Origin: an uncultured Bacilli bacterium
Lineage (GTDB): Bacteria > Bacillota_I > Bacilli_A > RF39 > UBA660
Direction of reading: 5' to 3'
Assembly (NCBI GenBank): GCA_944359055.1
Contig: CALVSO010000001.1
Location: forward strand, 37,460 to 101,459
Length of the DNA stretch: 64,000 nt
A model generated the notes under the pieces. The model worked only from the letters and a program-made list of their open reading frames with translations, did no database searches and was not told the DNA's origin. Shown here in pieces: positions 5,312-25,763 of this stretch. Numbering within the stretch: position 1 is the first letter of the stretch; the number at the start of each line of letters is the position of its first letter. The translations under genes and the position numbers were made by a program.

Positions 5312-5354
5312 CCATTTAACTTAAGATATAAAATTTGATATATAATTAAAGAAT

Positions 5355-6296: not shown

Positions 6297-6317
6297 TTGG
6301 TTATGCTAATAAAATAT

Positions 6318-6362: not shown

Positions 6363-6404
6363 AATATTATTCAAATTTCACTTTATATCAGAAATTCTTG
6401 AATT

Positions 6405-7475
6405 TTAGTTTTTTCTTTTTTTAAATAAATTAAGAGAAAATTTACTTTTATCATGTTCAATAATTATATTAGTTTTTAAAACAAATATTAAAACTAATAA
6501 CATTAAAATTCCATATAATAGATATCCTAATTTATTGTCTATTAATACATAAACAATAGAAGCTAGAGCAAATAAAGAATCAATAAAACATATTATTAAT
6601 ACTGTTTTTCTATGGGAAAAATTCATGTTTAGTAGTTGATGATGAATATGAAATTTATCTGGTTTAGTAATACTTTCATTTTTTAAGTATCTTCTTATTA
6701 TAGCAAATATAGTATCTAGAAAAGGAATTGCTAATATCGTAAATGGAATAATAATAGAAGTCATTGTAACGTTTTTAAATCCTAGAAGTGCAATAACACT
6801 TATTATAAAACCTAAAAACATAGAACCAGTATCGCCCATAAATATTGAAGCAGGATTAGCATTATATTTTAAGAATCCTAAACAAGACCCTAACATAATA
6901 AAACATAATATAAAATCTAATCCTTGTGTATGTTTAAAAATAGCAATACTTCCAACTGTTAAGAAAAATATACTACTAATACCTGTTGCTAGTCCATCTA
7001 AACCATCAATTAAATTCATGCAATTTATAAATGCAAGAATAAAAATTATTGTTACTAAATAAGATAAAATTCCAAAATCAATGTATATTCCAAATGCACT
7101 CATACTTGATAATAATATTTTTCCATAAAACACTACAACTAATGTTGCTGCAATTTGACCACATAATTTTACTTTGGCACTTAATGGCTTTATATCATCG
7201 ATTATACCAGTAATTATAATAATAAAACTTCCTATTAAAATTGAATTCATAACATCAGTATGTTTTCCAAATACCATATAACCAAATAAGAATCCGGCAT
7301 AAATAGCTAAGCCACCTAATCGTGGTATTGGAACTTTATGAACCTTTCTTTCATTTGGAATATCCAATGCTCCAACATGATTTGCTATTTTCTTTACAAT
7401 AGGTACCATTAAATATACAAATAGGTAACAGGTTAATGTTACTAATAATACTTGAATAAAAATTTCGTTTGACAT
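6405..7475 (-). CDS. tagO: Undecaprenyl-phosphate N-acetylhexosamine-1-phosphate transferase (TagO/WecA/MraY family), probable initiating transferase
   Basis: About 11 TM segments. Motifs IIDDIKPLSA, NCMNLIDGLDGLATGIS and FMGDTGSMFLGF are typical of MraY/WecA-family polyprenyl-phosphate HexNAc-1-P transferases. Confidence 0.85.
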   Translation of the reverse strand: MSNEIFIQVLLVTLTCYLFVYLMVPIVKKIANHVGALDIPNERKVHKVPIPRLGGLAIYAGFLFGYMVFGKHTDVMNSILIGSFIIIITGIIDDIKPLSAKVKLCGQIAATLVVVFYGKILLSSMSAFGIYIDFGILSYLVTIIFILAFINCMNLIDGLDGLATGISSIFFLTVGSIAIFKHTQGLDFILCFIMLGSCLGFLKYNANPASIFMGDTGSMFLGFIISVIALLGFKNVTMTSIIIPFTILAIPFLDTIFAIIRRYLKNESITKPDKFHIHHQLLNMNFSHRKTVLIICFIDSLFALASIVYVLIDNKLGYLLYGILMLLVLIFVLKTNIIIEHDKSKFSLNLFKKRKN

Positions 7476-7652
7476 CTTAACACCTCTATTAATAATTTTA
7501 TCAAATTTTTACATTTTAGTCTATATAATTGTTAAATGTTAATTATAATTAAAAAAAATAATTAAAATTAGTAAAATAATGTAAATAGTCTTTTAATATT
7601 AAAGAAAATATTATATAATTAGATTAATGGAATATTAGTGAGGAGAGATGTA

Positions 7653-8615
7653 ATGAAGACATATTTAATTACTGGAGGAGCTGGTTTTATTGGCTCAACT
7701 CTAGCAGATAAATTATTAGAAATGGGTAACAGAGTGGTTGTAATTGATAATTTTTGTGATTTTTACGATCCAAAATATAAAGAAAAGAACATAAAAGAAA
7801 GTTTAAAAAATAAAAATTATTCTTTGTATAGAGTGGATATTAGAAATTATTTAGAATTAGAAAAAGCTTTTAAAGAAAATAATGTTGATTGTATAGTCCA
7901 TTTGGCAGCTATGGCAGGTGTTCGCCCTTCAATAGAAAATCCTATTTTATATCAAGAAGTAAATGGATTAGGCACACAAAATATTTTAGAAATAGCTAAA
8001 AAATATTCAGTAAAAAATTTAGTTATGGCTTCTTCAAGTAGTGTTTATGGTAATTGCGATAAGGTTCCTTTTAAGGAAGATTTTATAGTTGATTATGCTA
8101 TAAGTCCATATGCTGCAACAAAAAAAAGTAATGAAGTTATGGCACATGTTTATCATAAATTATTTAACATGAATATAATCATGCTAAGATTTTTTACAGT
8201 TTATGGTCCAAAACAAAGACCGGATTTAGCTATTAATAAATTTACGAGATTAATGTTAGAAGATAAAGAAATACCAATGTATGGTGATGGTTCTACATCT
8301 AGAGATTATACTTATGTTGATGATATAGTTGATGGAATTATAAAATCAACAGAGTATGTTTTCAATAATGATAATGTTTATGAAATAATTAATATTGGTA
8401 ATTCAACTCCAATTTCATTAAAAGAGATGATTGACATTATTGGTGAGGTTTTAGGAGTAACACCTAAAATTGAACAATTACCTATGCAGCCAGGTGATGT
8501 TGAACGAACTTATGCTGATATAAGTAAAGCAAAAGAACTATTGAATTATGCCCCTAAAACTTCATTTAAAGAAGGAATTAAAAAATTTGTTGAATGGCAT
8601 TTAAAACAAAAATAG
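7653..8615 (+). CDS. NAD-dependent sugar-nucleotide epimerase (UDP-glucuronate 4-epimerase-like, SDR family)
   Basis: TGGAGFIGS Rossmann motif, YAATK catalytic Y-x3-K, and overall GalE/Cap1J-like layout. ATG at 7653 lies 6 nt after GAGGAGAG. The track ORF begins at GTG 7638. Confidence 0.8.
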   Translation: MKTYLITGGAGFIGSTLADKLLEMGNRVVVIDNFCDFYDPKYKEKNIKESLKNKNYSLYRVDIRNYLELEKAFKENNVDCIVHLAAMAGVRPSIENPILYQEVNGLGTQNILEIAKKYSVKNLVMASSSSVYGNCDKVPFKEDFIVDYAISPYAATKKSNEVMAHVYHKLFNMNIIMLRFFTVYGPKQRPDLAINKFTRLMLEDKEIPMYGDGSTSRDYTYVDDIVDGIIKSTEYVFNNDNVYEIINIGNSTPISLKEMIDIIGEVLGVTPKIEQLPMQPGDVERTYADISKAKELLNYAPKTSFKEGIKKFVEWHLKQK

Positions 8616-8627
8616 ACGGAGATTATT

Positions 8628-9620
8628 ATGAAATTAGGAATATTCAAAGAATTTAATAATAAGCATCAAAATTATATTGATGCATGTAACGAATTAAAAG
8701 TTGATTACGAAATTATTGATATATATGCTGACAATTGGATTGAAATTATTAAGAATAGTGATTGTGATGGTTTTTTGGTTCGTCCAAGTTGTGATAAACA
8801 AGATTGGAAGAATATGTATGATGAAAGATTATATTTTATTACAAAATATTTAAACAAAAAAATATATCCATCATATGATGAATGTTATATTTATGAAAGC
8901 AAAAACAGAATGTTTTATTGGCTTGAAGCAAATGGTTTTCCACATGTAGAAACTCATGTTTTTTATGATAAGAATGAAGCATTAAATTTTTTAAACAAAT
9001 GTGAGTATCCATTAGTATACAAGCCAAATTTGGGTAGTTCTTGTGTTGGCATCAAATTTGTTAATAATTATAAAGAAGGGAAAAAACTTGTTAATAAGGC
9101 CTTTCCTTATAAAGGGCTTGGAATGGGTATGATAAAAAAATATAAAACAAGATATAAATTTATAAATCGCCCAGCATTAGATGATAGACAATATAATTAT
9201 ATTATGTTTCAAAAAAAAGAAGATGTAGTTGCAGAGTGGCGAATAATAAAAATAGGAAATTCATTCTTTGGACACCAAAAATTAATTGATAAAAAAGGTT
9301 TTCATAGTGGTGCAGGAATTGGTGCTATTTGGCGAAAACCACCAAAAAAACTATTAGATTTATGCGATAGTATTTGTTCAAAAGGTAATTTTTATTCTAT
9401 GGCTTGTGATATATTTGAAACAAAAGAAAAAAAATATTATGTTAATGAATTACAGACAACCTTTGGATCATATGCTGAATCACAGATGATTATTGACAAT
9501 AAACCAGGAAGATATATTAAAAAGAATAATGATTATATTTTTCAAGAAGGTATTTTTAATAGACATGGAAGCTATTTGTTAAGAGTCGAACATTTTGTTG
9601 AAATTTTGAAAAACAAGTAG
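8628..9620 (+). CDS. ATP-grasp fold protein (RimK-like carboxylate-amine ligase candidate)
   Basis: Central region PLVYKPNLGSSCVGIKFV...AEWRIIKIGNSFFGHQK resembles the ATP-grasp nucleotide-binding core. Assignment rests on weak motif-level similarity only. Confidence 0.45.
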   Translation: MKLGIFKEFNNKHQNYIDACNELKVDYEIIDIYADNWIEIIKNSDCDGFLVRPSCDKQDWKNMYDERLYFITKYLNKKIYPSYDECYIYESKNRMFYWLEANGFPHVETHVFYDKNEALNFLNKCEYPLVYKPNLGSSCVGIKFVNNYKEGKKLVNKAFPYKGLGMGMIKKYKTRYKFINRPALDDRQYNYIMFQKKEDVVAEWRIIKIGNSFFGHQKLIDKKGFHSGAGIGAIWRKPPKKLLDLCDSICSKGNFYSMACDIFETKEKKYYVNELQTTFGSYAESQMIIDNKPGRYIKKNNDYIFQEGIFNRHGSYLLRVEHFVEILKNK

Positions 9621-9640
9621 ATAAATTGTGTTATTGGTAG

Positions 9641-9830
9641 CCTACAAATTGATGATGCAGAGACTGTTATAGCAGATATTTTAAATAATATTTATAAAGA
9701 TTTTGATATAATTGCTTTGCTAATTGAAAAAACTTATGTAGATATAAGTAAAAAAACTATTGAATTATGCCTCTAAAACTTCATTTAAAGAATAAATTAA
9801 AAAATTCGTTGAGAGACTTTAAAAAAAATA
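9641..9830 (+). pseudogene. Fossil chimeric junction: about 100 bp homologous to the 5' end of the GT4 gene at 10846-10950, fused to about 90 bp homologous to the 3' end of the epimerase gene at 8518-8605
   Basis: ttattggtagcctacaaattgatgatgcagagactgttatagcagatattttaaataatatttataaagattttgatataa aligns at about 90% with 10847-10930. cttatgtagatataagtaaaaaaactattgaattatgcctctaaaacttcatttaaagaataaattaaaaaattcgttga aligns at about 85% with 8518-8600. The junction shows microhomology (gaaaaac/ttatg). Confidence 0.7.
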
Positions 9831-9852
9831 ATGAAAGAGGATAGATATTTAA

Positions 9853-10767
9853 ATGTTAACAAAAAAAATAATTAAAATAATAAAAAAACCTAAAAAAATA
9901 ATAATTTTTTTGGCCTCAAAAGGAATTATTCCGTATAATGATGAAAAATATTTAAAATATGTATATAAAGAAAAAACTGGTGATGATTTAAATTTGGATA
10001 ACCCTAAAAACTTTACAGAGAAGCTTCAATGGTTAAAGTTATTTGATAGGAATCCATTATATACAAAATTGGTTGATAAATATGAAGTTAGAGACTATGT
10101 AAAAAAATTAATAGGAGAAAAATATTTAATACCATGTTTAGGAGTTTATGATAATGTTAATGAAATAGATTTTGAACAATTGCCTAATCAATTTGTTTTA
10201 AAAACAACACATGATTCTGGAACTGTTGTTATATGTAAAAATAAAAAAAATTTTGACATATCAAAAGCAAAAAAGTTTTTAAGTAAAAGATTAAAAAGAA
10301 AATATTTTTATTTGTGGAGAGAATGGCCTTATAAAGATGTAAAACCTCGTATAATTGCAGAAAAATATATGGAAGATAAAATATATAAAGGTATTAATGA
10401 TTATAAATTTTATTGTTTTAATGGAGAACCTAAGATTATGTTTATAATATTAGAAAGGAATATAAAGCCTAAGATGTCCTTTTATGATATGAACTTTAAT
10501 AAATTAGATATGCACCAAACATTTCCTGATTATAATAAAAAAATAGAAAAACCTAAAAATTTTGAAAAAATGATTCAGTTCTGTAAAATTTTAGGTAAAA
10601 AATTTTCTCATGTAAGGATTGATTTTTATGAATGTAATGATCAACTTTATTTTGGAGAATTAACTTTTTTTGATAGTGCAGGTTTTGATAAATTTTCACC
10701 AGATGTGTATAATGATATTTTAGGTGAATGGATAGATTTAGAAAGAGTTAATAAATATAATCATTAA
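9853..10767 (+). CDS. TupA-like ATP-grasp protein (teichuronopeptide-type amino acid ligase family)
   Basis: The hallmark N-terminal block NPKNFTEKLQWLKLFDRNPLYTKLVDKYEVRDYV and downstream LPNQFVLKTTHDSGTVVICK...WPYKDVKPRIIAEKYM match the ATPgrasp_TupA family. Confidence 0.75.
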   Translation: MLTKKIIKIIKKPKKIIIFLASKGIIPYNDEKYLKYVYKEKTGDDLNLDNPKNFTEKLQWLKLFDRNPLYTKLVDKYEVRDYVKKLIGEKYLIPCLGVYDNVNEIDFEQLPNQFVLKTTHDSGTVVICKNKKNFDISKAKKFLSKRLKRKYFYLWREWPYKDVKPRIIAEKYMEDKIYKGINDYKFYCFNGEPKIMFIILERNIKPKMSFYDMNFNKLDMHQTFPDYNKKIEKPKNFEKMIQFCKILGKKFSHVRIDFYECNDQLYFGELTFFDSAGFDKFSPDVYNDILGEWIDLERVNKYNH

Positions 10768-10811
10768 ATTTATTAATTTAAGTAATTGAAAATCTCCCTA
10801 AATTAGAAAGA

Positions 10812-11927
10812 TTGGTGTTAATATTGAAAAAAATTTTATTTGTTATTGGTAGCCTACAAATAGGTGGGGCGGAGACTGTTATGGTAGATATTTTAAATAA
10901 TATTTATAAAGATTTTGATATAACAGTTTTATTAATTGAAAAACGTGGAGAGTTGTTAAAAAGTATATCGCCTAATATAAAATTGAAATATTTAACTAAA
11001 GGTGATGAATTTTGTAAATCTTCATTAGAAAAATTTTATAATAAAGTTAAACGAAGTTTAATTTATAGATATTTTGGTAAAAGCAAATTGTATGTAAATT
11101 ATGTATATAAAAAAATTTTAAAAACTAAATATGATACGGAAATTGCTTTTTTAGCTGGGTTACCTTCTAATCTTGTTAAAATGAGTCCAAATAATAGTCA
11201 AAAAATAGTTTGGATACATGCTAGTGTTACTAAAGATGATGTGACAACATATGAAAAATATTCAACTATTTGTAATTCTTTTGATAAGATAATAGGTGTT
11301 AGTGAATCATGTATTAATATTTTTGAAGAAACGTTTCCTGAAAGTAAAGGAAAAATTGAACTAATTCATAATTATGTTGATATAAATAAAATTATAAATA
11401 AATCAAATTTGGAAAACATTTCATTTGATTCAGATAAATTAAACATTTTATCAATTGGAAGAATTGTATCAGAAAAAGGTTTTGATAGAATTATAAATAT
11501 TGCCAAAAAATATGAAAATAAAATAAATTTTTATATTATAGGTGATGGACCATTAAAAGATAAGTTGATGCATAGTTTGGTAGAACAAAAAATTAATAAT
11601 GTTATTTTTTTAGGACTAAAGAAAAATCCTTATCCATATATAAAAAAATGTGATGCTTTTTTACTCAGTTCACGTAGTGAAGCTTATCCGACTGTTGTAA
11701 TTGAGGCAATGGTTTTAAATAAAAGTATTATAGCAACAGATGTTCCAGGGGTTAGTGAAATTTTGAAAGAATATTTAGATAAATTAATTATTCCTAATTT
11801 AGATAATAGTATTGATGAAGGTTTAAATATATGGTTAAGCAGAAAAAATAATAATAAAAATTTAACTAATAATTTTAAAAAAATAAACGATGACAATTTA
11901 AGAAAAGTAAAAAAATTATTTGAGTAG
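10812..11927 (+). CDS. Glycosyltransferase family 4 (GT-B, group 1)
   Basis: N-terminal GSLQIGGAETVMVDIL and C-terminal EAYPTVVIEAMVLNKSIIATDVPGVSEIL (the E-x7-E region). The likely start is the in-frame TTG at 10824 (MKKILFVIG). Confidence 0.85.
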   Translation: MVLILKKILFVIGSLQIGGAETVMVDILNNIYKDFDITVLLIEKRGELLKSISPNIKLKYLTKGDEFCKSSLEKFYNKVKRSLIYRYFGKSKLYVNYVYKKILKTKYDTEIAFLAGLPSNLVKMSPNNSQKIVWIHASVTKDDVTTYEKYSTICNSFDKIIGVSESCINIFEETFPESKGKIELIHNYVDINKIINKSNLENISFDSDKLNILSIGRIVSEKGFDRIINIAKKYENKINFYIIGDGPLKDKLMHSLVEQKINNVIFLGLKKNPYPYIKKCDAFLLSSRSEAYPTVVIEAMVLNKSIIATDVPGVSEILKEYLDKLIIPNLDNSIDEGLNIWLSRKNNNKNLTNNFKKINDDNLRKVKKLFE

Positions 11928-11937
11928 GGTGATTAAC

Positions 11938-14900
11938 ATGAAAACAGATAAATTTACAAAATTATTAATTTTATTTATTATATTACAACCTTTATATGAT
12001 ATTTTTATTTATTTTCTAAATAATGTAATTAATTTTGATTTACCATTCATATCATTTGTTCGTCCATTAATTTCAATTGGAATTTATTTATATTTATTGT
12101 TTAGCTATAAAATTTCAACTAAAGAAAAATTAATTTCATTTATCTATTTATCTATTTATGGAATTTATTGTATCTTACACTTAATAAATATAAGAAATAA
12201 TTTCTTTGAACTATCTTATGGCAATATGTTTAATGAAATAAGATATTTGTGTAATTATGGATATTTTATAATACAATTGATTAATTTTTATTTTATTTTT
12301 AAAATTGTTAATAAAGAAGATAGAAAAAAAATCTTAATTTCTTTCACTCTAGCTATTGGTTTAATGACATTAATGTATTTTATTTCGATTATTACTAACA
12401 CATCGCCATTAACGTATATTTTTTCTAAAGGAAAGGAAGGATGGCGTGGTTGGTCTGTTTCAGCACACTATATAGGTCATTCAATTATTTATGCTTTACC
12501 TGTCATAATTTACACGATTTTTGAAAAAAAATATATAAATAAATGGTATAAATATTTGTTTTTTACTTGCATTTTGATTCCACCTTTTTATTTAGTAGGA
12601 ACAAAAACACCTTTATTTATGACTTTATTTATAGTCCTATTTTATACATTAATGAAAATAATTGTTTCAATAAAAGATAAAAAAATAAGTAAGGATACAA
12701 TATATTTTATAACAATTTCTTTAGTTTTAATATCAACATTCAATTTAACTTACGGATATGCCAATTTTAAAAATCAAATAAGCATTTCTGAAGGTGATGA
12801 AACTGGCGATATCAATTTAATAGAAGATAATATAGATGATTATGAAGATTCAACAATGCAAGAAAATCCTGATTTATCTACTTTTGAAAATAGAATGGTA
12901 TATACATTATATAAATATAGAGATATAAAGAGTTCAGTTTTTGATAATAGAACAATTCAAAAAACATTAAATAAATATTTGTATTCTATAAGCCCTATTA
13001 AGGATAAAATATTTGGTTATGGTCATGATACAATGCCTAATTGTAATTGGGTGGAAACTGATATTTTAACTATATTTTATTGTTATGGATTGGTTGGATT
13101 TTTATTAATAATAGTTTTACCATTAGGTTATATTGCAATCAATGGTTTAAAATGTTTATTTAATATTAAAAAAATGTCAATTTCTAAATTTATTTTAGGT
13201 TTTGGATTTGGTTTATCTTTGGCAATACTTTACTTTGTTGGATATACTATGCAATTTGCTCAAACTGTATTTTATTTAATAATTCTTTTGATTATTGCAA
13301 ATGATTTATTTATTAAAATAACAAATAAAAAAATTAAAAGAGATTATTTATTTATGATAAATGATTTAAGTATAGGTGGAGCAGAAGTTGGCATGGTTGA
13401 TGTTGTTAATGAATTATCAAAAAATGGAAATAAGGTAGATATTGTATTATTACGAAAAAGAGGACCTTTATTAGAAAAATTGGATAAAAACATCAATGTT
13501 TATGAAATTTTAAATTCTGATTATAACAAAATAAAGAAAAAAATTTATCATATATTTTATATGATAGGTGGACCTTTTATAAAATATGTCTACAAAAAAA
13601 CTATAAAAGCTGATTATAATACTGAAGTTGCTTATTTAGAAGGATATCCATCAGTTTTTATTGCATCTAGTAATAATAAAAACTCAACTAAAATAGCGTC
13701 AATAAGAGTAGGCTTAAAAAATCATAAGTTAAAAGCTCATAAGATTCCTTGGGGAGAACAGCTTGTTAAAAATTCTTATAAAAAAATGGATTATATTTAT
13801 ACAGTTTCTGATTTGACTACACAAGAATTTTTAGAAAAATATCCTTTTTGTGAAGGAAAAACAAGTACTATTTATACTTATTTTAATGTTGATGATATTG
13901 TAAAAAAAGCAAAAGAAAAAATAGATTATAAATTTGATCAAAATATGATTAATTTTTTGGCAGTTGGTCGTTTCAATACTCAAAAAGGATATGATAGATT
14001 AATAGAAGCTTTTTCAAAAGTAGTTCAAAAAAATCCAAATGTTTTGTTACATTTTTTAGGAAAGTATGATACTGAAGAAGGAAAAAAAGTTATTGATTTA
14101 ATTGAAAAAAATAATATTAAAGATAAGGTAATACTTCACGGAATAAAATCTAATCCTTATCCATATATGAAACAATGTGACTGTTTGATTAGTTCTTCTT
14201 TATATGAGGGATATCCAAGAGTTATTAATGAAGCTTTATGCTTGAAAAAAATTTGTATAGGAACAAATGTTACTGGTACAAAAGAAGCGTTAAAAAATGG
14301 TAAAATGGGTCTTTTAGTAGATGATTCAATTTCAGGATTGGAAAAAGGAATGCTAGATTTTATAAATGATAAAAATATTTATGATAAATATAAAGAAGAA
14401 ATCGAAAAATTTGATGGTAACAAAGAAAGTTATTTTAAAGGTTTAGAAAAAATCAGCAACAAAAAGAAGAAAATGATTATATATATGCCAAAGTTATCTT
14501 TTGGAGGCATGGAAAAAGCTTTAGTTAATTTAATTAATTATGCTAAGTTAAATGAAAAATATGATTTAACGTTATATTTAGTATATAAGGGTGATATGAA
14601 TTATTTAGAATTATTACCTAAAAATATTAAAATAATTATTGCATGTCCAAATAAATGGAATTTATTTGGAAAAGTAACAGCATTTATAAAATTAATTTTT
14701 AGATATATTTATCAAATATTTGTTAAATATGATATTGCTATTTCATATTCTTATCAGCATCCAATTCTAACTTCTTTAACTAGATTAAGTAGTGAAAATA
14801 GTATAGTTTACATTCATTCAAATTTAATTGATGGAATGAATAAAAAATTACTGCAAAAAAGAATAAAAAAATGTAAATATGAAAAATTTAAAAAAATTAT

Positions 14901-15546
14901 TTGTGTTTCAGAAGATGCAAAGAAAGCATTAGTAGGATTAATTCATAGAAAAGATAATATTTATGTATTAAATAATGTAATAGATGGAGATAAAATATTA
15001 TTACAATCTAATGAAAAAATAGATGATTTTAAATTTGAAAATAATACTATATATTTTATTAATATATGTCGTCATATTGAAGAATCTAAAAAACTTATAA
15101 GAATAATTGAGGCTACTAATAAATTGAACAAAGAAGGATATAAATTTGAAGTTCTTTTTGTAGGTGATGGGGAAGATCATCAGTTGTATATTGATAAAAT
15201 AAAAGAATTAAACATTAACAATATTCATTTGTTAGGAAAAAAGAAAAATCCTTATAAATATTTAAATAAATCGTCAGCCCTCTTATTATCTTCAATAAGA
15301 GAAGGATATCCTGTTGTGTTTGTTGAGTCTCTTGTACTTAATATTCCAATTGTAACAACTAATGTTTCTGATGCAAAAAAAGATATTAAAAATAAATATG
15401 GAATAGTAGTTTCAAATAATGATGAAGCAATTTATGATGGTATGAAAAAATTTATTAATGAAGGATTTAAAATTAAATATAATTTTGATTATATTCAGTA
15501 TAATCAAAAAATTTATTATGAGACTATAAAAATATATGAGGAGTGA
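11938..15546 (+). CDS. Tri-domain fusion: Wzy/O-antigen-polymerase-like polytopic membrane domain (about aa 1-460), then GT4 glycosyltransferase, then a second GT4 glycosyltransferase
   Basis: The N-terminal third has 10 or more TM helices and a large hydrophilic loop (ISEGDETGDINLIEDNIDDYEDSTMQENPD...NCNWVETDILTIFYCYGLVGFLLI) typical of Wzy/EpsG polymerases. GT4 domain 1: DLSIGGAEVGMVDVVNEL...EGYPRVINEALCLKKICIGTNVTGTKEAL. GT4 domain 2: MIIYMPKLSFGGMEKALVNL...EGYPVVFVESLVLNIPIVTTNVSDAKKDI. The 1196-codon ORF (1202 from TTG 11920) is continuous. ATG at 11938 follows RBS AGGGTGA. Confidence 0.7.
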   Translation: MKTDKFTKLLILFIILQPLYDIFIYFLNNVINFDLPFISFVRPLISIGIYLYLLFSYKISTKEKLISFIYLSIYGIYCILHLINIRNNFFELSYGNMFNEIRYLCNYGYFIIQLINFYFIFKIVNKEDRKKILISFTLAIGLMTLMYFISIITNTSPLTYIFSKGKEGWRGWSVSAHYIGHSIIYALPVIIYTIFEKKYINKWYKYLFFTCILIPPFYLVGTKTPLFMTLFIVLFYTLMKIIVSIKDKKISKDTIYFITISLVLISTFNLTYGYANFKNQISISEGDETGDINLIEDNIDDYEDSTMQENPDLSTFENRMVYTLYKYRDIKSSVFDNRTIQKTLNKYLYSISPIKDKIFGYGHDTMPNCNWVETDILTIFYCYGLVGFLLIIVLPLGYIAINGLKCLFNIKKMSISKFILGFGFGLSLAILYFVGYTMQFAQTVFYLIILLIIANDLFIKITNKKIKRDYLFMINDLSIGGAEVGMVDVVNELSKNGNKVDIVLLRKRGPLLEKLDKNINVYEILNSDYNKIKKKIYHIFYMIGGPFIKYVYKKTIKADYNTEVAYLEGYPSVFIASSNNKNSTKIASIRVGLKNHKLKAHKIPWGEQLVKNSYKKMDYIYTVSDLTTQEFLEKYPFCEGKTSTIYTYFNVDDIVKKAKEKIDYKFDQNMINFLAVGRFNTQKGYDRLIEAFSKVVQKNPNVLLHFLGKYDTEEGKKVIDLIEKNNIKDKVILHGIKSNPYPYMKQCDCLISSSLYEGYPRVINEALCLKKICIGTNVTGTKEALKNGKMGLLVDDSISGLEKGMLDFINDKNIYDKYKEEIEKFDGNKESYFKGLEKISNKKKKMIIYMPKLSFGGMEKALVNLINYAKLNEKYDLTLYLVYKGDMNYLELLPKNIKIIIACPNKWNLFGKVTAFIKLIFRYIYQIFVKYDIAISYSYQHPILTSLTRLSSENSIVYIHSNLIDGMNKKLLQKRIKKCKYEKFKKIICVSEDAKKALVGLIHRKDNIYVLNNVIDGDKILLQSNEKIDDFKFENNTIYFINICRHIEESKKLIRIIEATNKLNKEGYKFEVLFVGDGEDHQLYIDKIKELNINNIHLLGKKKNPYKYLNKSSALLLSSIREGYPVVFVESLVLNIPIVTTNVSDAKKDIKNKYGIVVSNNDEAIYDGMKKFINEGFKIKYNFDYIQYNQKIYYETIKIYEE

Positions 15547-15553
15547 TTTTTGT

Positions 15554-16339
15554 ATGAAAAAATTGATGATATTAATATTAACATCAATATTATTGATTGT
15601 AGGCATTTGTATATATTTTAATTTCAAAGAAAGAAAAATAGCAATTTTTGCTTATCATAAAATTGTTCCACAAGAAATAAAAAATGAATATTATAAAGAT
15701 AATAAATGGGTAGATACAGTTGAAAGATTTGAAGAACAAATGAAATATTTATATGAAAACAATTATAAAACCATATCAATGAGTGAATTTGAAAATTGGC
15801 GAAATACTGATAAAAAATATCCAATAAAAACAGTAATGATAACTATAGACGATGGTGATTTAGGAATTTATTATGAAATTTTACCTATTTTGAAAAAATA
15901 TAATTTCAAAGCAACTATGTTTATTATTGGTAATAAAATTAATGATGTATCAGAAGAATATAATCCTGCAAAACAGCAATTCATTGGTAGAGATTTATTA
16001 GAATCTATAAAAAAAGAGTATCCTAATTTAGAAATCCATAGTCATTCATTTGATTTACATAATCTAAATACAAAAGATTTATCTTTAGAAGAAGTAAAAA
16101 ATGATTTTATCAAAATGCAAAAATTTGAAACTAATATTTTTTGTTATCCATATGGTACTTCGTCTGAAAAAATAAAGCAAGTATTAGAAGAAAATAATTA
16201 TAAAATGGCATTTACTCTTGATAAATCTAATTTATCTTCAAAAAAAAATGATAAGTATGAAATTTCAAGAATAGGAATTAACTATGAAACTTCATTCTTA
16301 AATTTTAAAAAATGGTTAATTAAACAATTTATAATGTGA
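15554..16339 (+). CDS. Polysaccharide deacetylase (NodB homology domain, CE4) with an N-terminal membrane anchor
   Basis: TIDDGDLGIYYEILPILKKYNFKATMFIIG matches the NodB motif-1 region. The HSHSFDLH histidine motif is present. N-terminal TM helix. Confidence 0.8.
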   Translation: MKKLMILILTSILLIVGICIYFNFKERKIAIFAYHKIVPQEIKNEYYKDNKWVDTVERFEEQMKYLYENNYKTISMSEFENWRNTDKKYPIKTVMITIDDGDLGIYYEILPILKKYNFKATMFIIGNKINDVSEEYNPAKQQFIGRDLLESIKKEYPNLEIHSHSFDLHNLNTKDLSLEEVKNDFIKMQKFETNIFCYPYGTSSEKIKQVLEENNYKMAFTLDKSNLSSKKNDKYEISRIGINYETSFLNFKKWLIKQFIM

Positions 16340-16346
16340 GGTTAAT

Positions 16347-16811
16347 ATGAAACGAGTTATGTTTATAAGTAGTGTTGGAGGTCATTTAACACAGCTTTTA
16401 GAACTTAAAACAATTTTTAAAGATTATAATTATGTTTTAGTTACTGAAAAAAATGACGTTACTAAAGACATGAAAAAAAAATACAAAATGGAATATTTAA
16501 TTTATGGTTCTCGAGAATATTTATTTAAATATGTATTTATCTTTTTATTTAATATTTTTAAATCATTTTATTTGTTTTTTAAATATCGTCCTAATGTTAT
16601 TGTTACAACGGGAACTCATACAGCGGTTCCAATGTGCTATATTGGTAGATTATTTGGTAAAAAAGTAATATTTATCGAAAGTTATGCAAAAAGAACAAGT
16701 CCTACGTTATCAGGTAGGCTTGTTTATCCAATTGCTAGTACATTTATAGTACAATGGGAAACTATGTTGGAATTTTATCCTAAAGCAAAATATTTTGGAG
16801 GTATTTATTGA
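16347..16811 (+). CDS. Alg14-like glycosyltransferase membrane-anchor subunit (Cps14F/EpsF-like)
   Basis: MFISSVGGHLTQLLELK...PNVIVTTGTHTAVPMCYIGRLFGKKVIFIESYAKRTSPTLSGRL matches the Alg14-like family. Confidence 0.75.
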   Translation: MKRVMFISSVGGHLTQLLELKTIFKDYNYVLVTEKNDVTKDMKKKYKMEYLIYGSREYLFKYVFIFLFNIFKSFYLFFKYRPNVIVTTGTHTAVPMCYIGRLFGKKVIFIESYAKRTSPTLSGRLVYPIASTFIVQWETMLEFYPKAKYFGGIY

Positions 16812-17275
16812 TGATATTAGTAACGTTAGGCACACAAAAACAATCTTTTAATAGATTATTAGATATGATTGAAAAAAGTAATATAAATGATAAAATAATT
16901 GTTCAAGCTGGATATACGAAATATAAAAGTAAAAAAATGAAAATGCTTGATTTTGTTGATTATCAAGAAATGGATAAATTAATAAAGCAAGCTGATTTAA
17001 TAATAACTCATGGTGGTACCGGTTCAATTGTAACAGCAATAAAGCAAGGAAAAAAAGTAATTGCCTGTCCTAGATTAAAAAAGTATGGTGAGCATGTAGA
17101 TGATCACCAAAAACAAATTGTCGATATTTTTTCTGAAGTAGGATATATATTAAAACTAGATGAAAATGACAATTTGGATGAATTAGTACAAAAAATTAAA
17201 ACGAAAAAAATGATTCCATTTAAATCAAATACAACTAATTTTATTAATAATTTAAAAAAGGAAATAGATTGTTAG
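16808..17275 (+). CDS. Alg13-like (GT28 C-terminal domain) glycosyltransferase catalytic subunit (Cps14G/EpsE-like)
   Basis: MILVTLGTQKQSFNRLL...ADLIITHGGTGSIVTAIKQGKKVIACPR matches the Alg13/MurG C-terminal domain. The gene overlaps the preceding Alg14-like gene by 4 nt. Confidence 0.75.
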   Translation: MMILVTLGTQKQSFNRLLDMIEKSNINDKIIVQAGYTKYKSKKMKMLDFVDYQEMDKLIKQADLIITHGGTGSIVTAIKQGKKVIACPRLKKYGEHVDDHQKQIVDIFSEVGYILKLDENDNLDELVQKIKTKKMIPFKSNTTNFINNLKKEIDC

Positions 17276-17278
17276 TTT

Positions 17279-18226
17279 ATGAAAAATATTAAAGTAAGTA
17301 TATGTTGCATTACATATAATCAGGAAAAATACATAGAACAAGCTATTAATAGCTTCCTTAGTCAAAAAACAAATTTTGATTATGAAATAATTATTCATGA
17401 TGATGCATCTAATGATGAAACAGTAAATATATTAACAAAATATCAAAAAAAATATCCAGATAAAATTGTTTTGATGTTAGAAAAAGAGAACCAATATTCA
17501 AAGTGCGCCAATTCTGTTTTAGTTAAAGTTTTAGATAAAGCTAAAGGAAAGTATATTGCATTATGTGATGGAGACGACTTTTGGTGTGATGATAATAAAT
17601 TACAAAAACAAGTCGATTATATGGATTTACACAAAAACATAAGCTTATGTTCTCATAATACAGAAATTATTAATGAAAATAATGAAAAAATAGATTTAAT
17701 AAATTCTTATTTAGAAGGAATTGTAACAATTGAAAATTTTTTATCTAATAACTCTAGTATGCATACTTCTTCAATGTTATTTAGAAAAAAAGATGTTTTA
17801 AAACTTCCAAATTACTATTATGAAGCAACAGTAGGAGATTTACCTTTAAAATTACATTTATTGTCTAAAGGTAATTGTTATCATTTTAATAATGTGATGT
17901 CATGTTATAGAACTAATGCTATTAATTCATGGAGTGTAGCTCAAAAAAATAATGATATTGTTAAACATAAAAATTTTGAAATGGAAATTCAAGTATATAA
18001 TTCTTTCAACAAGGAAACAAAATATGTTTACGATGATTTAATCAAAAATAAAATTTTATATAGAAGTTTTTGCTATTTCAAGGATAAAAATGATTTAAAT
18101 GAAATAAAAAAAGAAAAATATGCAAAATATTATAAGAAATTATCATTAAATGAAAAAATAAAATTACAATTAAAAAACAGTAAAGTTATATATAAACTTT
18201 ATTTAAAAATTAAAAAGCAGAAATAA
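17279..18226 (+). CDS. Glycosyltransferase family 2
   Basis: VSICCITYNQEKYIEQAINSFLSQ...IIIHDDASNDET...LCDGDDFW. GT2 DxD motifs are present. Confidence 0.85.
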   Translation: MKNIKVSICCITYNQEKYIEQAINSFLSQKTNFDYEIIIHDDASNDETVNILTKYQKKYPDKIVLMLEKENQYSKCANSVLVKVLDKAKGKYIALCDGDDFWCDDNKLQKQVDYMDLHKNISLCSHNTEIINENNEKIDLINSYLEGIVTIENFLSNNSSMHTSSMLFRKKDVLKLPNYYYEATVGDLPLKLHLLSKGNCYHFNNVMSCYRTNAINSWSVAQKNNDIVKHKNFEMEIQVYNSFNKETKYVYDDLIKNKILYRSFCYFKDKNDLNEIKKEKYAKYYKKLSLNEKIKLQLKNSKVIYKLYLKIKKQK

Positions 18227-18352: not shown

Positions 18353-19813
18353 TTGAAAAATGAAAATATAAAAAATGAAGTAATTTCTTCCTTAATTTGG
18401 AAATTTTTAGAGCGTATTGGAACTCAAGGTGTTCAATTTATTGTTTCAATCATATTAGCAAGATTATTACTTCCAAGTGATTATGGAGTAGTATCTATGA
18501 TATTGGTTTTTACAGCAATTGCTAATGTTTTTATTCAAACAGGATTTAGTACATCATTGATTCAAAAAAAAGATTCTGATGAATTGGATTTTTCATCAGT
18601 ATTCTATATTAGCTTATTGATTGCAGCAATTTGTTATGTGATATTGTTTTTTGCAGCACCTATTATAGCTAGTTTTTATAATATGCCTGCTATTACTTCG
18701 ATATTAAGAGTTATATCATTGACATTATTTTTTGGAGCAATTAATTCGGTTCAAAATGCAAAAATTGCTAAAGAAATGAAATTTAAAAAATTATTTTTAA
18801 GTGGTTTAGTGGCTATTTTAATATCTGGGACTACAGGTGTCTTAATGGCATATAAAGGATTTGGACCATGGGCGCTAGTAGGTCAACAAATTGCTAATTC
18901 TATAGCAACAACTATTATTCTATGGTTTACTTCTGGTTGGCAGCCAAAGTTAATGTTTTCAATTAATAGGGTAAAGTCATTGTTATCTTATGGCTGGAAA
19001 ATATTATGTTCAGCTCTTTTAGATACTATTTATCAAAATATTTATAATTTAGTTATTGGTAAATTTTATAGTAGTAGTACTTTAGGTAATTATAATAAAG
19101 GTGAACAATTTCCTAAATTAATTGCGGTTAATGTTGATGGTGCAATAAGTTCAGTAATGTTACCAGCCTATTCAAAACAACAAGATAGAAAAGACAAATT
19201 AAAGAAAATGGTTAGAAGATCTATAGTAACAAGTTCGTTGTTGTTATTTCCTATGATGTTTGGATTGGCGGCTGTGGCAGAAACTGTTGTTAAAGTACTG
19301 CTAACAGAAAATTGGTTAGGGTGTGTTCCGTTCATGCAATTATTATGTATTGTATATGCTTTATATCCTATTAATACTGCAAATCTACAGGTAATAAAAG
19401 CATTAGGAAAAAGTGATTATTTTTTAAAACTAGAAATAATTAAAAAAATTATTGGTTTAATTGTTTTAATAGTAACTTTACCATTTGGTGTTCTTCAAAT
19501 GGCTATTGGACAAGTATTAGTAGCTATTTTATCAACTTTTATAAATGCTTTCCCTAATCGCAAGTTATTAAATTATAATTACTTTGAACAAATAAAAGAT
19601 TTGTTTCCAAGCTTAATTATTTCAATTATAATGTTTATAATTGTATATTCATTTAATTTTATTAATTTAAATATGTATATTTTATTAATCATTCAAATAT
19701 TAGTTGGAGTGATTATATATTTTGGATTGGCTTATATTTTCAAATTGGAATCATTAAATTATATGATAGAAATATTAAAATCGTTTTTAAAAAAGAAAGA
19801 GGCGTTAAAATGA
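18353..19813 (+). CDS. wzx: Wzx-type polysaccharide flippase (MOP/PST family)
   Basis: 486 aa with about 12-14 TM helices and a PST-family profile. TTG start follows RBS TGAGGTGA. Confidence 0.85.
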   Translation: MKNENIKNEVISSLIWKFLERIGTQGVQFIVSIILARLLLPSDYGVVSMILVFTAIANVFIQTGFSTSLIQKKDSDELDFSSVFYISLLIAAICYVILFFAAPIIASFYNMPAITSILRVISLTLFFGAINSVQNAKIAKEMKFKKLFLSGLVAILISGTTGVLMAYKGFGPWALVGQQIANSIATTIILWFTSGWQPKLMFSINRVKSLLSYGWKILCSALLDTIYQNIYNLVIGKFYSSSTLGNYNKGEQFPKLIAVNVDGAISSVMLPAYSKQQDRKDKLKKMVRRSIVTSSLLLFPMMFGLAAVAETVVKVLLTENWLGCVPFMQLLCIVYALYPINTANLQVIKALGKSDYFLKLEIIKKIIGLIVLIVTLPFGVLQMAIGQVLVAILSTFINAFPNRKLLNYNYFEQIKDLFPSLIISIIMFIIVYSFNFINLNMYILLIIQILVGVIIYFGLAYIFKLESLNYMIEILKSFLKKKEALK

Positions 19814-20553
19814 AATTAGGAATAATGCAACCATACTTTTTTCCATATTTAGGTTATTTTAGTTTAATAAAAAATACTGATGAATTTATATTATTTGATT
19901 CTGTACAATTTATAAAACATGGTTGGATTGAAAGAAATAGAATATTGAAACAAGGAGGAGATTGGCAATATGTTGCAGTTCCTTTAGAAAAACATTCTTT
20001 AGATACAAAAATTATGGATATTAAGATTAGAAATAGTGAAGATTGGAAAAATAAAATTTTAAGCCAATTAACTCAATATAAAAGAAAAGCTCCATATTAT
20101 AATCAAACAATAGAAGTTGTAAAAAAAGCTTTAGATATTGATACTGATAGTATTGTAGTTTTAAATAAACATATTTTAGAAGTAGTATGTGAATATTTAG
20201 GATTTTGTCCTAATATTAAGATTTTCTCAGAAATGAATTTAAAAATAGAAGAGGCAAAAGCGCCTGACGAATGGGCTTTAAATATTTGTGTTGCTATGGG
20301 TAATGTAAATGAATATTGGAATCCTCCAGGAGGAATTAGTTTTTTCGATAAAACAAAATATGATAAAAAGAATATCGAATTAAAATTTCAATCTATTAAT
20401 TTACAACCTTATGTTCAAAGAATTGGTTATTTTGAACCAGGATTATCTATAATTGATGTTATGATGTTTAATCAACCAAGTGATATATTAAAATTTTTAG
20501 ATGATTATAAATTTATAGAACCTGAAGTGGAGAAAACTATATGCAAGAAATAG
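19810..20553 (+). CDS. WbqC-like family protein
   Basis: N-terminus MKLGIMQPYFFPYLGYFSLI is the signature start of the WbqC-like family. Its start overlaps the wzx stop by 4 nt. Confidence 0.7.
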   Translation: MKLGIMQPYFFPYLGYFSLIKNTDEFILFDSVQFIKHGWIERNRILKQGGDWQYVAVPLEKHSLDTKIMDIKIRNSEDWKNKILSQLTQYKRKAPYYNQTIEVVKKALDIDTDSIVVLNKHILEVVCEYLGFCPNIKIFSEMNLKIEEAKAPDEWALNICVAMGNVNEYWNPPGGISFFDKTKYDKKNIELKFQSINLQPYVQRIGYFEPGLSIIDVMMFNQPSDILKFLDDYKFIEPEVEKTICKK

Positions 20554-22770: not shown

Positions 22771-22783
22771 GGAGTGACTAAAT

Positions 22784-23881: not shown

Positions 23882-23883
23882 TT

Positions 23884-24750: not shown

Positions 24751-24751
24751 T

Positions 24752-25762: not shown

Positions 25763-25763
25763 T

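What the first reader, a model, noticed from the sequence alone, without database searches (positions are those of the whole stretch)
11938..15546. Single 1200-aa polypeptide fusing a Wzy-like polymerase membrane domain to two complete GT4 glycosyltransferase domains
Residues ~1-460 form a polytopic domain with the large hydrophilic loop typical of O-antigen/EPS polymerases. Residues ~475-840 and ~850-1208 are two full GT-B GT4 modules, each with its own N-terminal GG(A/M)E motif and C-terminal E-x7-E region. Polymerase-glycosyltransferase fusions are uncommon. Such a fusion would physically couple the two glycosyl transfers to polymerisation, though it could also be an assembly or frameshift artefact.
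Basis: seen in the sequence. Interest (0 to 1): 0.55.

Follow-up and report, generated by a model that had tools for sequence, protein, structure and literature searches.

The report
Polymerase-like membrane enzyme fused to two glycosyltransferases
A gut bacterium of the uncultured RF39 group really does encode one 1202-residue protein that joins a Wzy/O-antigen-ligase-type membrane enzyme to two cytoplasmic sugar transferases; hundreds of independent assemblies carry it, but it is a compacted form of a gene pair that stays separate in other bacteria.

Summary
Window 11938-15546 (+) is one uninterrupted ORF of 1202 aa from its ATG.

- **Architecture.** Residues 4-450 match the full Pfam PF13425 "O-antigen ligase-like" profile. 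Two complete GT4/GT-B modules follow (about 467-840 and 844-1202), each keeping GG(A/M)E, R/K and E-x7-E motifs.
- **Not an artefact.** The exact protein sits on 9 contigs. About 38 clusters of 1196-1229 aa share the architecture at 50-97% identity. Seven other genomes of related species have intact ORFs, and all three modules are under purifying selection.
- **Membrane domain.** It models confidently (pLDDT 93) as 12 helices with both ends inside. Its only credible PDB fold match is the WaaL ligase. Its conserved residues (K223, R338, E373) face outward.
- **Locus role.** It is the only Wzy candidate in a Wzx-type polysaccharide locus.
- **Split orthologues.** Two other lineages keep a stand-alone PF13425 gene overlapping a 732-738 aa di-GT4 gene, so the covalent link is dispensable.
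- **Coupling.** The transferase and polymerase sites lie on opposite membrane faces, with flipping in between. Direct coupling is therefore unlikely.

Polymerase versus ligase remains unproven. The closest precedent is Brucella WadA. Verdict: new variant of a known kind, moderate interest.

The parts
11938..15546 (+). Complete fusion ORF, 1202 aa plus stop. An alternative TTG start at 11920 would overlap the upstream GT4 gene.
   Evidence: same length in the 42-member 90% cluster
11926..11932 (+). Shine-Dalgarno-like AGGGTGA, 5 nt upstream of the ATG. It overlaps the stop codon of the upstream GT4 gene.
   Evidence: read directly from the sequence
11938..13323 (+). N-terminal GT-C membrane domain (residues 1-462), PF13425 O-antigen-ligase-like/Wzy-like. 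It has 12 TM helices with N-in and C-in, and a large outer loop at about residues 286-374.
   Evidence: Pfam E 6.8e-38; hydropathy and positive-inside pattern; AF2 pLDDT 93.3, pTM 0.92; Foldseek WaaL 7tpg E 3.7e-3, prob 1.00
12604..12606 (+). K223 of the GTK motif. It aligns with the Und-PP-binding Arg of WaaL (R191 in C. metallidurans, R215 in E. coli).
   Evidence: weak alignments with a consistent register; G221 is invariant and T222/K223 at least 90% conserved
12949..12951 (+). R338 in the large outer loop (DNR motif), invariant in the 82-sequence family alignment. Candidate diphosphate-binding Arg.
13054..13056 (+). E373 (W-V-E-x-D), invariant, at the end of the outer loop just before TM10. 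It falls in register with the catalytic His313 of WaaL. Candidate general base.
   Evidence: interpretation follows PMC10920833
13324..13335 (+). Short K/R-rich linker (about residues 460-466, NKKIKRD) between TM12 and the first strand of GT4 module 1.
   Evidence: full-length model; it matches the gene boundary in the split orthologue L029
13336..14457 (+). GT4 module 1 (residues 467-840), a complete GT-B fold with GGAE 480-483, R678/K683 and E757-x7-E765.
14467..15543 (+). GT4 module 2 (residues 844-1202), a complete GT-B fold with GGME 856-859, R1045/K1051 and E1122-x7-E1130. It is joined to module 1 by about 4 residues.
6405..7475 (-). WecA/TagO-family polyprenyl-phosphate sugar-1-phosphate transferase. 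Candidate initiating enzyme of the locus.
   Evidence: PF00953 E 4e-38; WecA model 160 bits, below its cutoff
7638..11927 (+). Upstream locus genes: SDR epimerase/dehydratase (7638-8615), ATP-grasp (8628-9620), TupA-like ATP-grasp (9853-10767) and a stand-alone GT4 (10812-11927).
   Evidence: synteny in related genomes
15536..18226 (+). Downstream locus genes: polysaccharide deacetylase (15536-16339, overlapping the fusion ORF by 11 nt), Alg14-like/Alg13-like split GT pair (16347-17275) and a GT2 (17279-18226).
18353..19813 (+). Wzx-type flippase (Polysacc_synt_3). With the WecA-like protein and the fusion it is one of only three polytopic proteins in the locus.
   Evidence: PF13440 E 5.5e-99; TM counts
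19810..27086 (+). Sugar-precursor and decoration genes: WbqC-like, unknown 315 aa, ATP-grasp, DegT aminotransferase, RmlA, RmlB and UDP-glucose dehydrogenase.

Best explanation
The gene encodes a three-module enzyme of a Wzx/Wzy-type cell-surface polysaccharide pathway in an RF39-order gut bacterium (Candidatus Faecisoma, 97-98% identical to two MAGs).

The two C-terminal GT4 (retaining, GT-B) modules sit in the cytoplasm, tethered a few residues below the last transmembrane helix. Each adds one sugar from a nucleotide-sugar donor to the undecaprenyl-diphosphate-linked repeat unit. That unit is started by the WecA-like enzyme and extended by the other locus transferases.

The finished unit is flipped by the locus Wzx. 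The N-terminal 12-helix GT-C domain then acts at the outer face. It is the only Wzy candidate in the locus. It most likely polymerises repeat units with inversion, using K223/R338 to hold the diphosphate and E373 as base.

The fusion does not channel substrate. It is a compacted form of a conserved, translationally coupled gene pair (Wzy gene overlapping a di-GT4 gene). It enforces 1:1:1 stoichiometry, membrane recruitment of the transferases, and co-inheritance of the polymerase with the transferases that probably build the sugars it recognises.

Shown here: ORF integrity, domain identities, topology pattern, fold, conservation, locus context and split orthologues. Inferred: polymerase activity, inverting chemistry, the order of transfers and the reason for fusion.
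For: ORF and domains.

Independent assemblies:
- The exact protein lies on 9 contigs, and all 15 listed members of its 42-member 90% cluster are 1152-1203 aa.
- Sister clusters have 247 and 249 members.
- 38 clusters of 1196-1229 aa show the same Pfam architecture.
- Intact ORFs are present in 7 genomes of other species.

Selection and motifs:
- Purifying selection acts on each module, with dN/dS 0.07-0.46.
- Catalytic motifs of both GT4 modules are invariant.
- GT-B folds match BshA, PglH, PglA, TarM and WaaG.

Membrane domain:
- AF2 pLDDT 93.3, 12 helices, K/R-rich inner loops.
- The only credible PDB fold match is WaaL 7tpg.
- Family-invariant R338 and E373, and GTK223 aligned to WaaL R191/R215.
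- This fits the GT-C1 clan pattern of 1-2 Arg plus an Asp/Glu in place of the ligase His (PMC10920833).

Locus:
- The locus has a WecA-like initiator, a Wzx, four further GT genes and no other polytopic protein.
- Synteny is conserved across the clade.

Split orthologues with GGAGG-GTG overlapping the stop codon: L029/L030 and L033/L034.
Against: - No activity data exist for any member of this subfamily.
- PF13425 also includes candidate ligases, such as B. anthracis WpaA/WpaB (PMC6030368).
- No Wzz/CpsC-type chain-length regulator or LCP ligase was found in the locus or the window.
- The residue correspondences with WaaL rest on statistically weak alignments (E 0.43 and 0.014).
- The Foldseek TM-score is only 0.40-0.45.
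- The inter-domain geometry of the full-length model is only moderately confident (pTM 0.70), and its coordinates could not be inspected.
Confidence: 0.6

Rival explanations
1. The N-terminal domain is not a polymerase. It is a ligase or O-oligosaccharyltransferase that moves the flipped, unpolymerised oligosaccharide from undecaprenyl diphosphate onto an acceptor. The acceptor could be a surface protein, a glycolipid or a cell-wall linkage unit. The protein would then be a Gram-positive, three-module analogue of Brucella WadA, in which the fused transferases build the glycan that the same polypeptide later ligates.
For: - The best Pfam match is 'O-antigen ligase-like', and NCBI names a cluster member 'O-antigen ligase family protein'.
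- The only PDB fold match is a ligase, WaaL.
- WadA shows that ligase-GT fusions exist and work (PMC9938171).
- No chain-length regulator is present in the locus.
- Dockerin and cadherin-like surface-protein genes lie just upstream, and do so also in L001, L004 and L009.
Against: - The position in register with the catalytic His of WaaL holds an invariant Glu. In the CAZy analysis that marks polymerase families rather than GT121 ligases.
- The locus would then lack any polymerase, although it has a Wzx and about six transferases, typical of repeat-unit polymers.
- No WaaL-type lipid A-core acceptor is expected in a member of the Bacilli.
Confidence: 0.22
2. The membrane domain is catalytically inert. 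It serves only as a membrane anchor or scaffold that places the two GT4 modules at the lipid-linked substrate, and polymerisation is done elsewhere or not at all.
For: The membrane part diverges faster than the GT4 parts: 43-65% against 59-75% identity, with the higher dN/dS in every comparison with a different species.
Against: - Outward-facing polar residues are invariant. R338, E373 and G221 are invariant across 82 family members at 20-40% identity, and many more across the 28 full-length homologues.
- dN/dS stays below 0.5.
- Fast divergence is normal for Wzy proteins.
- There is no other Wzy candidate in the locus.
Confidence: 0.06
3. The long ORF is an assembly, frameshift or read-through artefact, or the cell mostly makes separate proteins from internal starts at M473 and M846.
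For: - Met codons sit at both junctions (YLFM473, KKKKM846), and an A7 run lies near junction 1.
- Split gene pairs exist in other lineages.
Against: - The same frame is open in hundreds of independent assemblies from NCBI, ENA, Logan and JGI, and across 50-97% identity.
- No strong Shine-Dalgarno sequence precedes either internal Met.
- The junction 2 sequence is not a long homopolymer.
Confidence: 0.03

Closest known systems
WadA of Brucella abortus/melitensis, a bimodular GT25 + GT121 O-antigen ligase (Servais et al. 2023, PMC9938171; Meitil et al. 2024, PMC10920833)
   Same: One polypeptide joins a WaaL/Wzy-superfamily GT-C membrane domain, acting outside, to a cytoplasmic nucleotide-sugar glycosyltransferase acting inside. 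The two catalytic sites lie on opposite membrane faces. The fused transferase builds part of the glycan that the membrane domain later handles.
   Different: - WadA has one GT25 (GT-A) module at the N-terminus; here two GT4 (GT-B) modules sit at the C-terminus.
- WadA is a His-type LPS ligase of a Gram-negative; here there is a Glu-type PF13425 domain in a Wzx-type locus of a member of the Bacilli, most likely a polymerase.
- There is no detectable sequence relationship beyond the clan.
Wzy-type bacterial polysaccharide polymerases of the inverting GT-C1 clan (CAZy GT125-GT129; Meitil et al. 2024)
   Same: - Polytopic (12 TM) with a long outer loop near the C-terminus.
- 1-2 conserved Arg/Lys plus a conserved Glu/Asp, all on the outer face.
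- Encoded beside a Wzx and the repeat-unit transferases.
   Different: - Described Wzy proteins are stand-alone proteins of about 350-500 aa.
- A 2025 review of Wzy polymerases mentions no natural Wzy-GT fusion (PMC12004945).
- Assignment to a particular CAZy family could not be tested here.
WaaL O-antigen ligase (PDB 7TPG, Cupriavidus metallidurans; E. coli WaaL)
   Same: - It is the only credible structural neighbour in the PDB (Foldseek E 3.7e-3, prob 1.00).
- The GTK223 motif aligns with GTR191 / TQTR215.
   Different: - Sequence similarity is not significant (E 0.43).
- The catalytic His position holds Glu.
- No LPS acceptor is expected.
- TM-score is only 0.40-0.45.
PF13425 members in the literature: Flavobacterium psychrophilum serotype-specific Wzy (PMC5601056) and Bacillus anthracis WpaA/WpaB (PMC6030368)
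   Same: They belong to the same Pfam family and are predicted polymerases and/or ligases of surface or secondary cell-wall polysaccharides.
   Different: They are stand-alone proteins, and none has a demonstrated enzymatic activity.
Split orthologous module: stand-alone PF13425 gene (477-508 aa) plus an overlapping di-GT4 gene (732-738 aa) in metagenomic contigs L029/L030 and L033/L034
   Same: - 41% identity to the membrane domain and 47.6% to the di-GT4 part, over full length for L029.
- Same neighbours: Alg14/Alg13-like pair and TupA-like ATP-grasp.
   Different: - Two polypeptides, with a GGAGG ribosome-binding site and a GTG start overlapping the TGA stop.
- L029 comes from an organism with 52% GC.

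Membership tests
Wzy-type polysaccharide polymerase (GT-C, WaaL/Wzy/SEDS superfamily) | Polytopic membrane protein of 10-14 TM helices with cytoplasmic termini | tested here: met
   12 helices in the AF2 model. K/R-rich loops alternate as expected for N-in/C-in. No dedicated topology predictor was available.
Wzy-type polysaccharide polymerase (GT-C, WaaL/Wzy/SEDS superfamily) | Large extracytoplasmic loop near the C-terminus carrying conserved Arg and an acidic or His residue; conserved residues on the outer face | tested here: met
   The loop spans about residues 286-374. R338 and E373 are invariant in 82 sequences, and K223, D336, N337 and D375 are conserved.
Wzy-type polysaccharide polymerase (GT-C, WaaL/Wzy/SEDS superfamily) | Fold shared with solved members of the superfamily | tested here: met
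Wzy-type polysaccharide polymerase (GT-C, WaaL/Wzy/SEDS superfamily) | Encoded in a locus with a Wzx flippase and an initiating phosphoglycosyltransferase, as the locus polymerase candidate | tested here: met
   WecA-like gene at 6405-7475 and Wzx at 18353-19813. No other polytopic protein lies in 6405-27086.
Wzy-type polysaccharide polymerase (GT-C, WaaL/Wzy/SEDS superfamily) | Partner chain-length regulator (Wzz/CpsC-type) in the pathway | tested here: inconclusive
   None was found in the locus or among the window ORFs scanned. The rest of the genome was not available.
Wzy-type polysaccharide polymerase (GT-C, WaaL/Wzy/SEDS superfamily) | Polymerises Und-PP-linked repeat units | not testable with these tools
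   This requires biochemistry or genetics.
CAZy BP-Pol families GT125-GT129 (clan GT-C1) | Significant match to a family HMM | not testable with these tools
   The CAZy/dbCAN models were not available. Only the clan-level residue pattern could be compared.
O-antigen ligase WaaL (CAZy GT121) | Catalytic His in the large outer loop (H313 in C. metallidurans WaaL) | tested here: not met
   The profile alignment register puts the invariant E373 opposite H313. That alignment segment is not itself significant, so the result is suggestive only.
O-antigen ligase WaaL (CAZy GT121) | Significant sequence similarity to WaaL | tested here: not met
   phmmer found no WaaL hit. The profile search gave E 0.43. 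hhalign against E. coli WaaL gave probability 3%, E 0.014.
O-antigen ligase WaaL (CAZy GT121) | Lipid A-core acceptor (LPS-producing organism) | not testable with these tools
   The organism is placed in RF39 (Bacilli) through 97-98% identical MAGs. The window encodes FtsW/RodA. A whole-genome check for LPS genes was not possible.
GT4 retaining glycosyltransferases (GT-B) | Pfam GT4 models above gathering score, for each of two modules | tested here: met
   PF00534 scores 163.6 bits with 2 stretches and PF13439 scores 51.1 bits with 2 stretches.
GT4 retaining glycosyltransferases (GT-B) | Two Rossmann-like halves and the E-x7-E motif in the C-terminal half | tested here: met
   The full-length model shows alternating strand/helix GT-B folds. 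Foldseek matches BshA, PglH, PglA and WaaG at TMt 0.65-0.79. E757-E765 and E1122-E1130 are invariant.
PglJ / PglH equivalogs (Campylobacter N-glycan GalNAc transferases) | Score above the NCBIfam equivalog cutoff | tested here: not met
   PglJ scores 159.7 bits against a cutoff of 500, and PglH 57.9 against 600. The resemblance is at family level only, so donor sugars are not assigned.
WadA-type bimodular ligase | GT25 module N-terminal to a GT121 domain | tested here: not met
   The modules here are GT4, number two, and are C-terminal. This is an analogy of design, not family membership.

The most novel reading that the evidence does not exclude
The covalent Wzy-GT4-GT4 fusion, its translationally coupled split orthologues and the other PF13425-GT fusions may be 'Rosetta-stone' evidence for a physical complex. 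On this reading, the cytoplasmic repeat-unit transferases and the outward-facing polymerase of Wzx/Wzy pathways work as one complex, probably with Wzx. The lipid-linked unit would be finished, flipped and polymerised within a single membrane machine. The fused GT4 modules would make exactly the terminal sugars that the polymerase domain recognises as its acceptor. The RF39 protein would then be a natural single-chain minimal assembly line, well suited to structural work on a pathway whose polymerase has resisted study.
Probability: 0.25. Interest if true: 0.6.

Novelty: new variant of a known kind. Interest (0 to 1): 0.4.

Why it matters
Wzy polymerases are central to capsule, O-antigen and cell-wall polysaccharide synthesis, yet they remain poorly understood, and how they cooperate with the cytoplasmic transferases and Wzx is unsettled.

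A natural protein that ties a Wzy-like domain to two transferases is abundant in gut metagenomes, stable over long evolutionary distances and confidently modelled. It offers three things:
- genetic evidence that these enzymes belong together functionally;
- a convenient single-chain target for cryo-EM and for in vitro reconstitution;
- a second, independent example, after Brucella WadA, of a membrane enzyme with active sites on both faces of the membrane.

It also shows that automatic annotation ('O-antigen ligase family protein') hides about 740 residues of transferase in these proteins. The finding does not reveal a new kind of chemistry or pathway.

Tried and rejected
- **Sequence searches against the PDB.** phmmer of the N-domain gave nothing relevant. 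The family profile gave WaaL only at E 0.43.
- **hhalign against E. coli proteins.** The family profile against E. coli WaaL was weak. Against the E. coli O16 polymerase WbbH there was no similarity, so this is not a WbbH-type Wzy.
- **NCBIfam equivalogs.** PglJ, PglH, TuaC, TuaG and WecA all score far below their cutoffs, so donor and acceptor sugars are not assigned.
- **Literature.** Searches for natural Wzy-glycosyltransferase fusions found none. The only precedent was the ligase WadA.
- **Slippery or phase-variable junctions.** Junction 2 has no long homopolymer and junction 1 has only an A7 run. Rejected as an explanation.
- **Second Wzy, Wzz/CpsCD or LCP gene.** None was found among the window ORFs scanned.
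- **Model geometry.** Coordinates of the AF2 models could not be read, so the spatial clustering of K223/R338/E373 and the orientation of the GT active sites toward the membrane were not measured.


Full report
**1. The observation**

Window 11920-15546 (+) is a single open frame. The ATG at 11938 follows AGGGTGA at 11926-11932, which overlaps the stop codon of the upstream GT4 gene. This start gives a 1202-aa product.

The segment is 21.6% G+C. A random frame would carry a stop about every 10 codons, so P(no stop in 1202 codons) is about 1e-57. The two other frames of the same strand have 133 and 173 stops.

[quoted passage not shown] It also finds two sets of GT4 domains, PF13439 plus PF00534/PF13692.

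**2. Not an artefact**

- The exact 1202-aa sequence is recorded on 9 contigs from NCBI, Logan and ENA. All 15 listed members of its 42-member 90% cluster are 1152-1203 aa (the shortest is partial). Two sister clusters have 247 and 249 members, and one member of these was seen on 68 contigs.
- A database search found 38 clusters of 1196-1229 aa with the same Pfam architecture at 50-97% identity.
- Among GTDB species representatives, the ORF is intact in seven genomes besides the window's own species (L001, L003-L008). It is cut only by a contig end in L002.
- dN/dS is below 0.5 in all three modules in every comparison.
- In 28 full-length homologues the nucleotide-sugar and catalytic motifs of both GT4 modules are invariant: GG-x-E, R678/K683 and R1045/K1051, and both E-x7-E motifs.

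**3. Organism and locus**

The window is 97-98% identical at protein level to an 'uncultured Bacilli' MAG and to Candidatus Faecisoma merdavium. That genus corresponds to GTDB CAG-878, family CAG-822, order RF39 (PMC8035907). NCBI files it under Mycoplasmatota incertae sedis. The window also encodes an FtsW/RodA protein, so a peptidoglycan wall is expected.

The ORF lies in a co-oriented, tightly packed polysaccharide locus at 6405-27086:
- a WecA/TagO-like initiating enzyme;
- an SDR epimerase;
- two ATP-grasp enzymes, one of them TupA-like;
- a stand-alone GT4;
- the fusion;
- a polysaccharide deacetylase;
- an Alg14/Alg13-like pair;
- a GT2;
- a Wzx flippase;
- WbqC-like, unknown, ATP-grasp, DegT, RmlA, RmlB and UDP-glucose dehydrogenase genes.

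Apart from the WecA-like protein and Wzx, the fusion is the only polytopic membrane protein. It is therefore the only Wzy candidate. The gene order is conserved across the clade.

**4. The membrane domain**

With an 82-sequence family alignment, AlphaFold2 gives a confident model (pLDDT 93.3, pTM 0.92). It has twelve membrane helices and a large loop at about residues 286-374. K/R-rich short loops alternate in the pattern expected for N-in and C-in.

The only credible PDB fold match is the WaaL O-antigen ligase (7tpg_B, E 3.7e-3, probability 1.00, TM 0.40/0.45). All other hits have E above 1.

Sequence similarity to WaaL is not significant, but two alignments agree on the register. The GTK223 motif aligns with GTR191 of C. 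metallidurans WaaL and with TQTR215 of E. coli WaaL. The invariant E373 falls opposite the catalytic His313. Across the family, R338 and E373 are invariant.

This matches the pattern reported for the inverting GT-C1 clan. There, polymerase families carry one or two Arg and a Glu/Asp where ligases carry His, and all conserved residues face outward (PMC10920833). There is no similarity to the E. coli O16 polymerase WbbH.

I therefore read the domain as a WaaL-like-fold, Glu-type enzyme and most likely an inverting polymerase. The ligase alternative is not excluded. PF13425 includes both predicted polymerases (F. psychrophilum; PMC5601056) and candidate polymerase/ligases (B. anthracis WpaA/WpaB; PMC6030368).

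**5. The transferase modules**

The full-length model (pLDDT 88.7, pTM 0.70) shows TM12 ending at residue 459 and the first strand of module 1 at 467. Module 1's last helix ends at 839, and the first strand of module 2 starts at 844. The linkers are thus only about 7 and 4 residues long.

Both modules are complete GT-B folds. They match retaining GT4 enzymes such as BshA, PglH, PglA, TarM, HepE, PimA and WaaG. NCBIfam similarity to PglJ and PglH is far below the equivalog cutoffs, so sugars cannot be assigned. The three GT4 units of the locus are only about 30% identical to each other, so they are old paralogues and not recent duplicates.

**6. How the fusion arose, and what it implies**

The N-domain family is small: 242 representatives at E ≤ 1e-3 among 1.84 billion. 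Most are stand-alone proteins of 430-520 aa. Twenty of the best 150 are 611-1259 aa.

The ten long representatives scanned have these architectures:
- PF13425 with one C-terminal GT4 (P0078, P0196, P0150, P0176);
- PF13425 with two GT4 matches (P0041);
- GT2 followed by PF13425 (P0087);
- PF13425 with an unassigned C-terminal extension (P0167, P0072, P0067, P0075).

The closest stand-alone relatives are revealing. In L029/L030 a 477-aa PF13425 gene is followed by a 732-aa di-GT4 gene. The di-GT4's GTG start overlaps the TGA stop and is preceded by GGAGG. The membrane protein is 41% identical to our N-domain, and the di-GT4 is 47.6% identical over residues 468-1201. The contig has 52% G+C. L033/L034 show the same arrangement with 508-aa and 738-aa products overlapping by 4 nt. 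In both, Alg14/Alg13-like genes lie beside the pair, and TupA-like genes do so in L029 and L033.

In L009 the membrane domain is fused to module 1 only, and the next gene is a different GT4 fused to Alg14.

So a conserved Wzy plus di-GT4 module exists in several lineages. In the compact, AT-rich RF39 genomes the two genes have merged.

**7. Mechanism**

The GT4 modules need nucleotide sugars and are tethered to the cytoplasmic end of TM12. The conserved residues of the membrane domain face outward. The two chemistries are therefore separated by the membrane and by Wzx-mediated flipping.

The fusion cannot channel a substrate directly, and the split orthologues show that covalent linkage is dispensable. 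I infer that the likely benefits are fixed stoichiometry, membrane recruitment of the transferases, and co-inheritance of a polymerase with the transferases that probably build the sugars it recognises.

The same logic was proposed for Brucella WadA. There a cytoplasmic GT25 adds the core sugar onto which the fused ligase domain later attaches O-antigen (PMC9938171).

**8. Comparison with what is known, and novelty**

[quoted passage not shown] Literature searches found no description of a natural Wzy-transferase fusion. A 2025 review of Wzy polymerases does not mention one.

The sequences themselves are already in public databases. One partial member is annotated 'O-antigen ligase family protein'.

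The finding is a new variant of a known kind. It is a three-module, GT4-bearing, probably polymerase-type counterpart of WadA, and it is widespread in an uncultured gut lineage. Interest is moderate. It does not overturn anything. It does provide genetic evidence that links repeat-unit transferases to the polymerase, and a tractable single-chain target for a poorly understood enzyme class.

**9. Limits**

- No activity is known for any member of this subfamily.
- The polymerase-versus-ligase call rests on locus logic and a weakly supported residue correspondence.
- Model coordinates could not be inspected.
- The rest of the genome could not be checked for LCP, Wzz or another Wzy.

Noticed in passing
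window 8628-9620, compared with L001 8391-8470: The first ATP-grasp gene of the locus is present in the window but has no tblastn match of at least 50% coverage in the 97-98% identical MAG L001. There the epimerase gene is followed almost directly by the TupA-like gene. This looks like a strain-level gene indel inside the polysaccharide locus.
   Followed up: partly
window 19810-22770, compared with L002 8630-9194: In the Ca. Faecisoma merdavium MAG (L002) the WbqC-like, unknown 315-aa and ATP-grasp genes between Wzx and DegT gave no tblastn match, and only about 560 bp lie between Wzx and DegT. L002 also carries about 1 kb of unmatched sequence between GT2 and Wzx. This suggests that sugar decoration varies between close strains.
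   Followed up: no
window 11938-15546, compared with L001 and L002: Divergence inside the fusion gene is mosaic. Against L001, dS is 0.13 in the Wzy part, 0.10 in GT4 module 1 and 0.01 in module 2. Against L002, module 1 is 99% identical but module 2 only 91%. This suggests recombination breakpoints within the gene.
   Followed up: partly
window 5312-6404 (ORFs 5437-5880 and 5952-6296): A PD-(D/E)XK family transposase-like fragment (PF12784) and a 114-aa ORF with no Pfam match lie between the cadherin-like gene and the WecA-like gene. In L001 those two genes are only about 10 bp apart, so this is probably an insertion remnant in the window's strain.
   Followed up: partly
L009 12595-14196: In a Hadza gut MAG the gene after a two-module Wzy-GT4 protein (875 aa) encodes a 533-aa fusion of a different GT4 with an Alg14-like domain. 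It is another unusual transferase fusion in the same locus type.
   Followed up: partly
window 1828-5311; also L001, L004, L009: A 665-aa protein with an SH3_3 domain and a type I dockerin, and a 491-aa cadherin-like-domain protein, lie just upstream of the polysaccharide locus. Homologues at 35-42% identity lie upstream of the locus in other species too: both genes in L004, the cadherin-like one in L009. A dockerin in an RF39 genome is unexpected, and its partner is unknown.
   Followed up: no
window 31557-32778: A tRNA-Met gene is followed by a DUF3644 / EC042_2821 restriction-endonuclease-like gene. This could be a small integrated element or defence gene next to a tRNA.
   Followed up: no
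window 1-64000: GC skew is positive in every 2-kb bin and cumulative skew rises steadily. Nearly all ORFs of at least 90-100 aa are on the + strand, and many adjacent genes overlap by 4-14 nt. The region is a strongly co-oriented, compact leading-strand stretch at 20-32% G+C.
   Followed up: no
L010 5263-8247 (Muribaculaceae MAG); P0055 (Proteiniphilum): PF13425-GT4 fusions also occur in Bacteroidota. The Muribaculaceae copy is 31% (membrane domain) and 43% (GT4) identical to the RF39 protein. It sits next to a WecA-like gene that is 62% identical, which hints at horizontal transfer of the module between gut phyla.
   Followed up: partly
window 20541-21488: A 315-aa ORF is conserved in L001 (97%) and L005 (67%) between the WbqC-like and ATP-grasp genes. 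It has no Pfam or NCBIfam match and no predicted TM segment, so its function in the sugar-decoration part of the locus is unknown.
   Followed up: no
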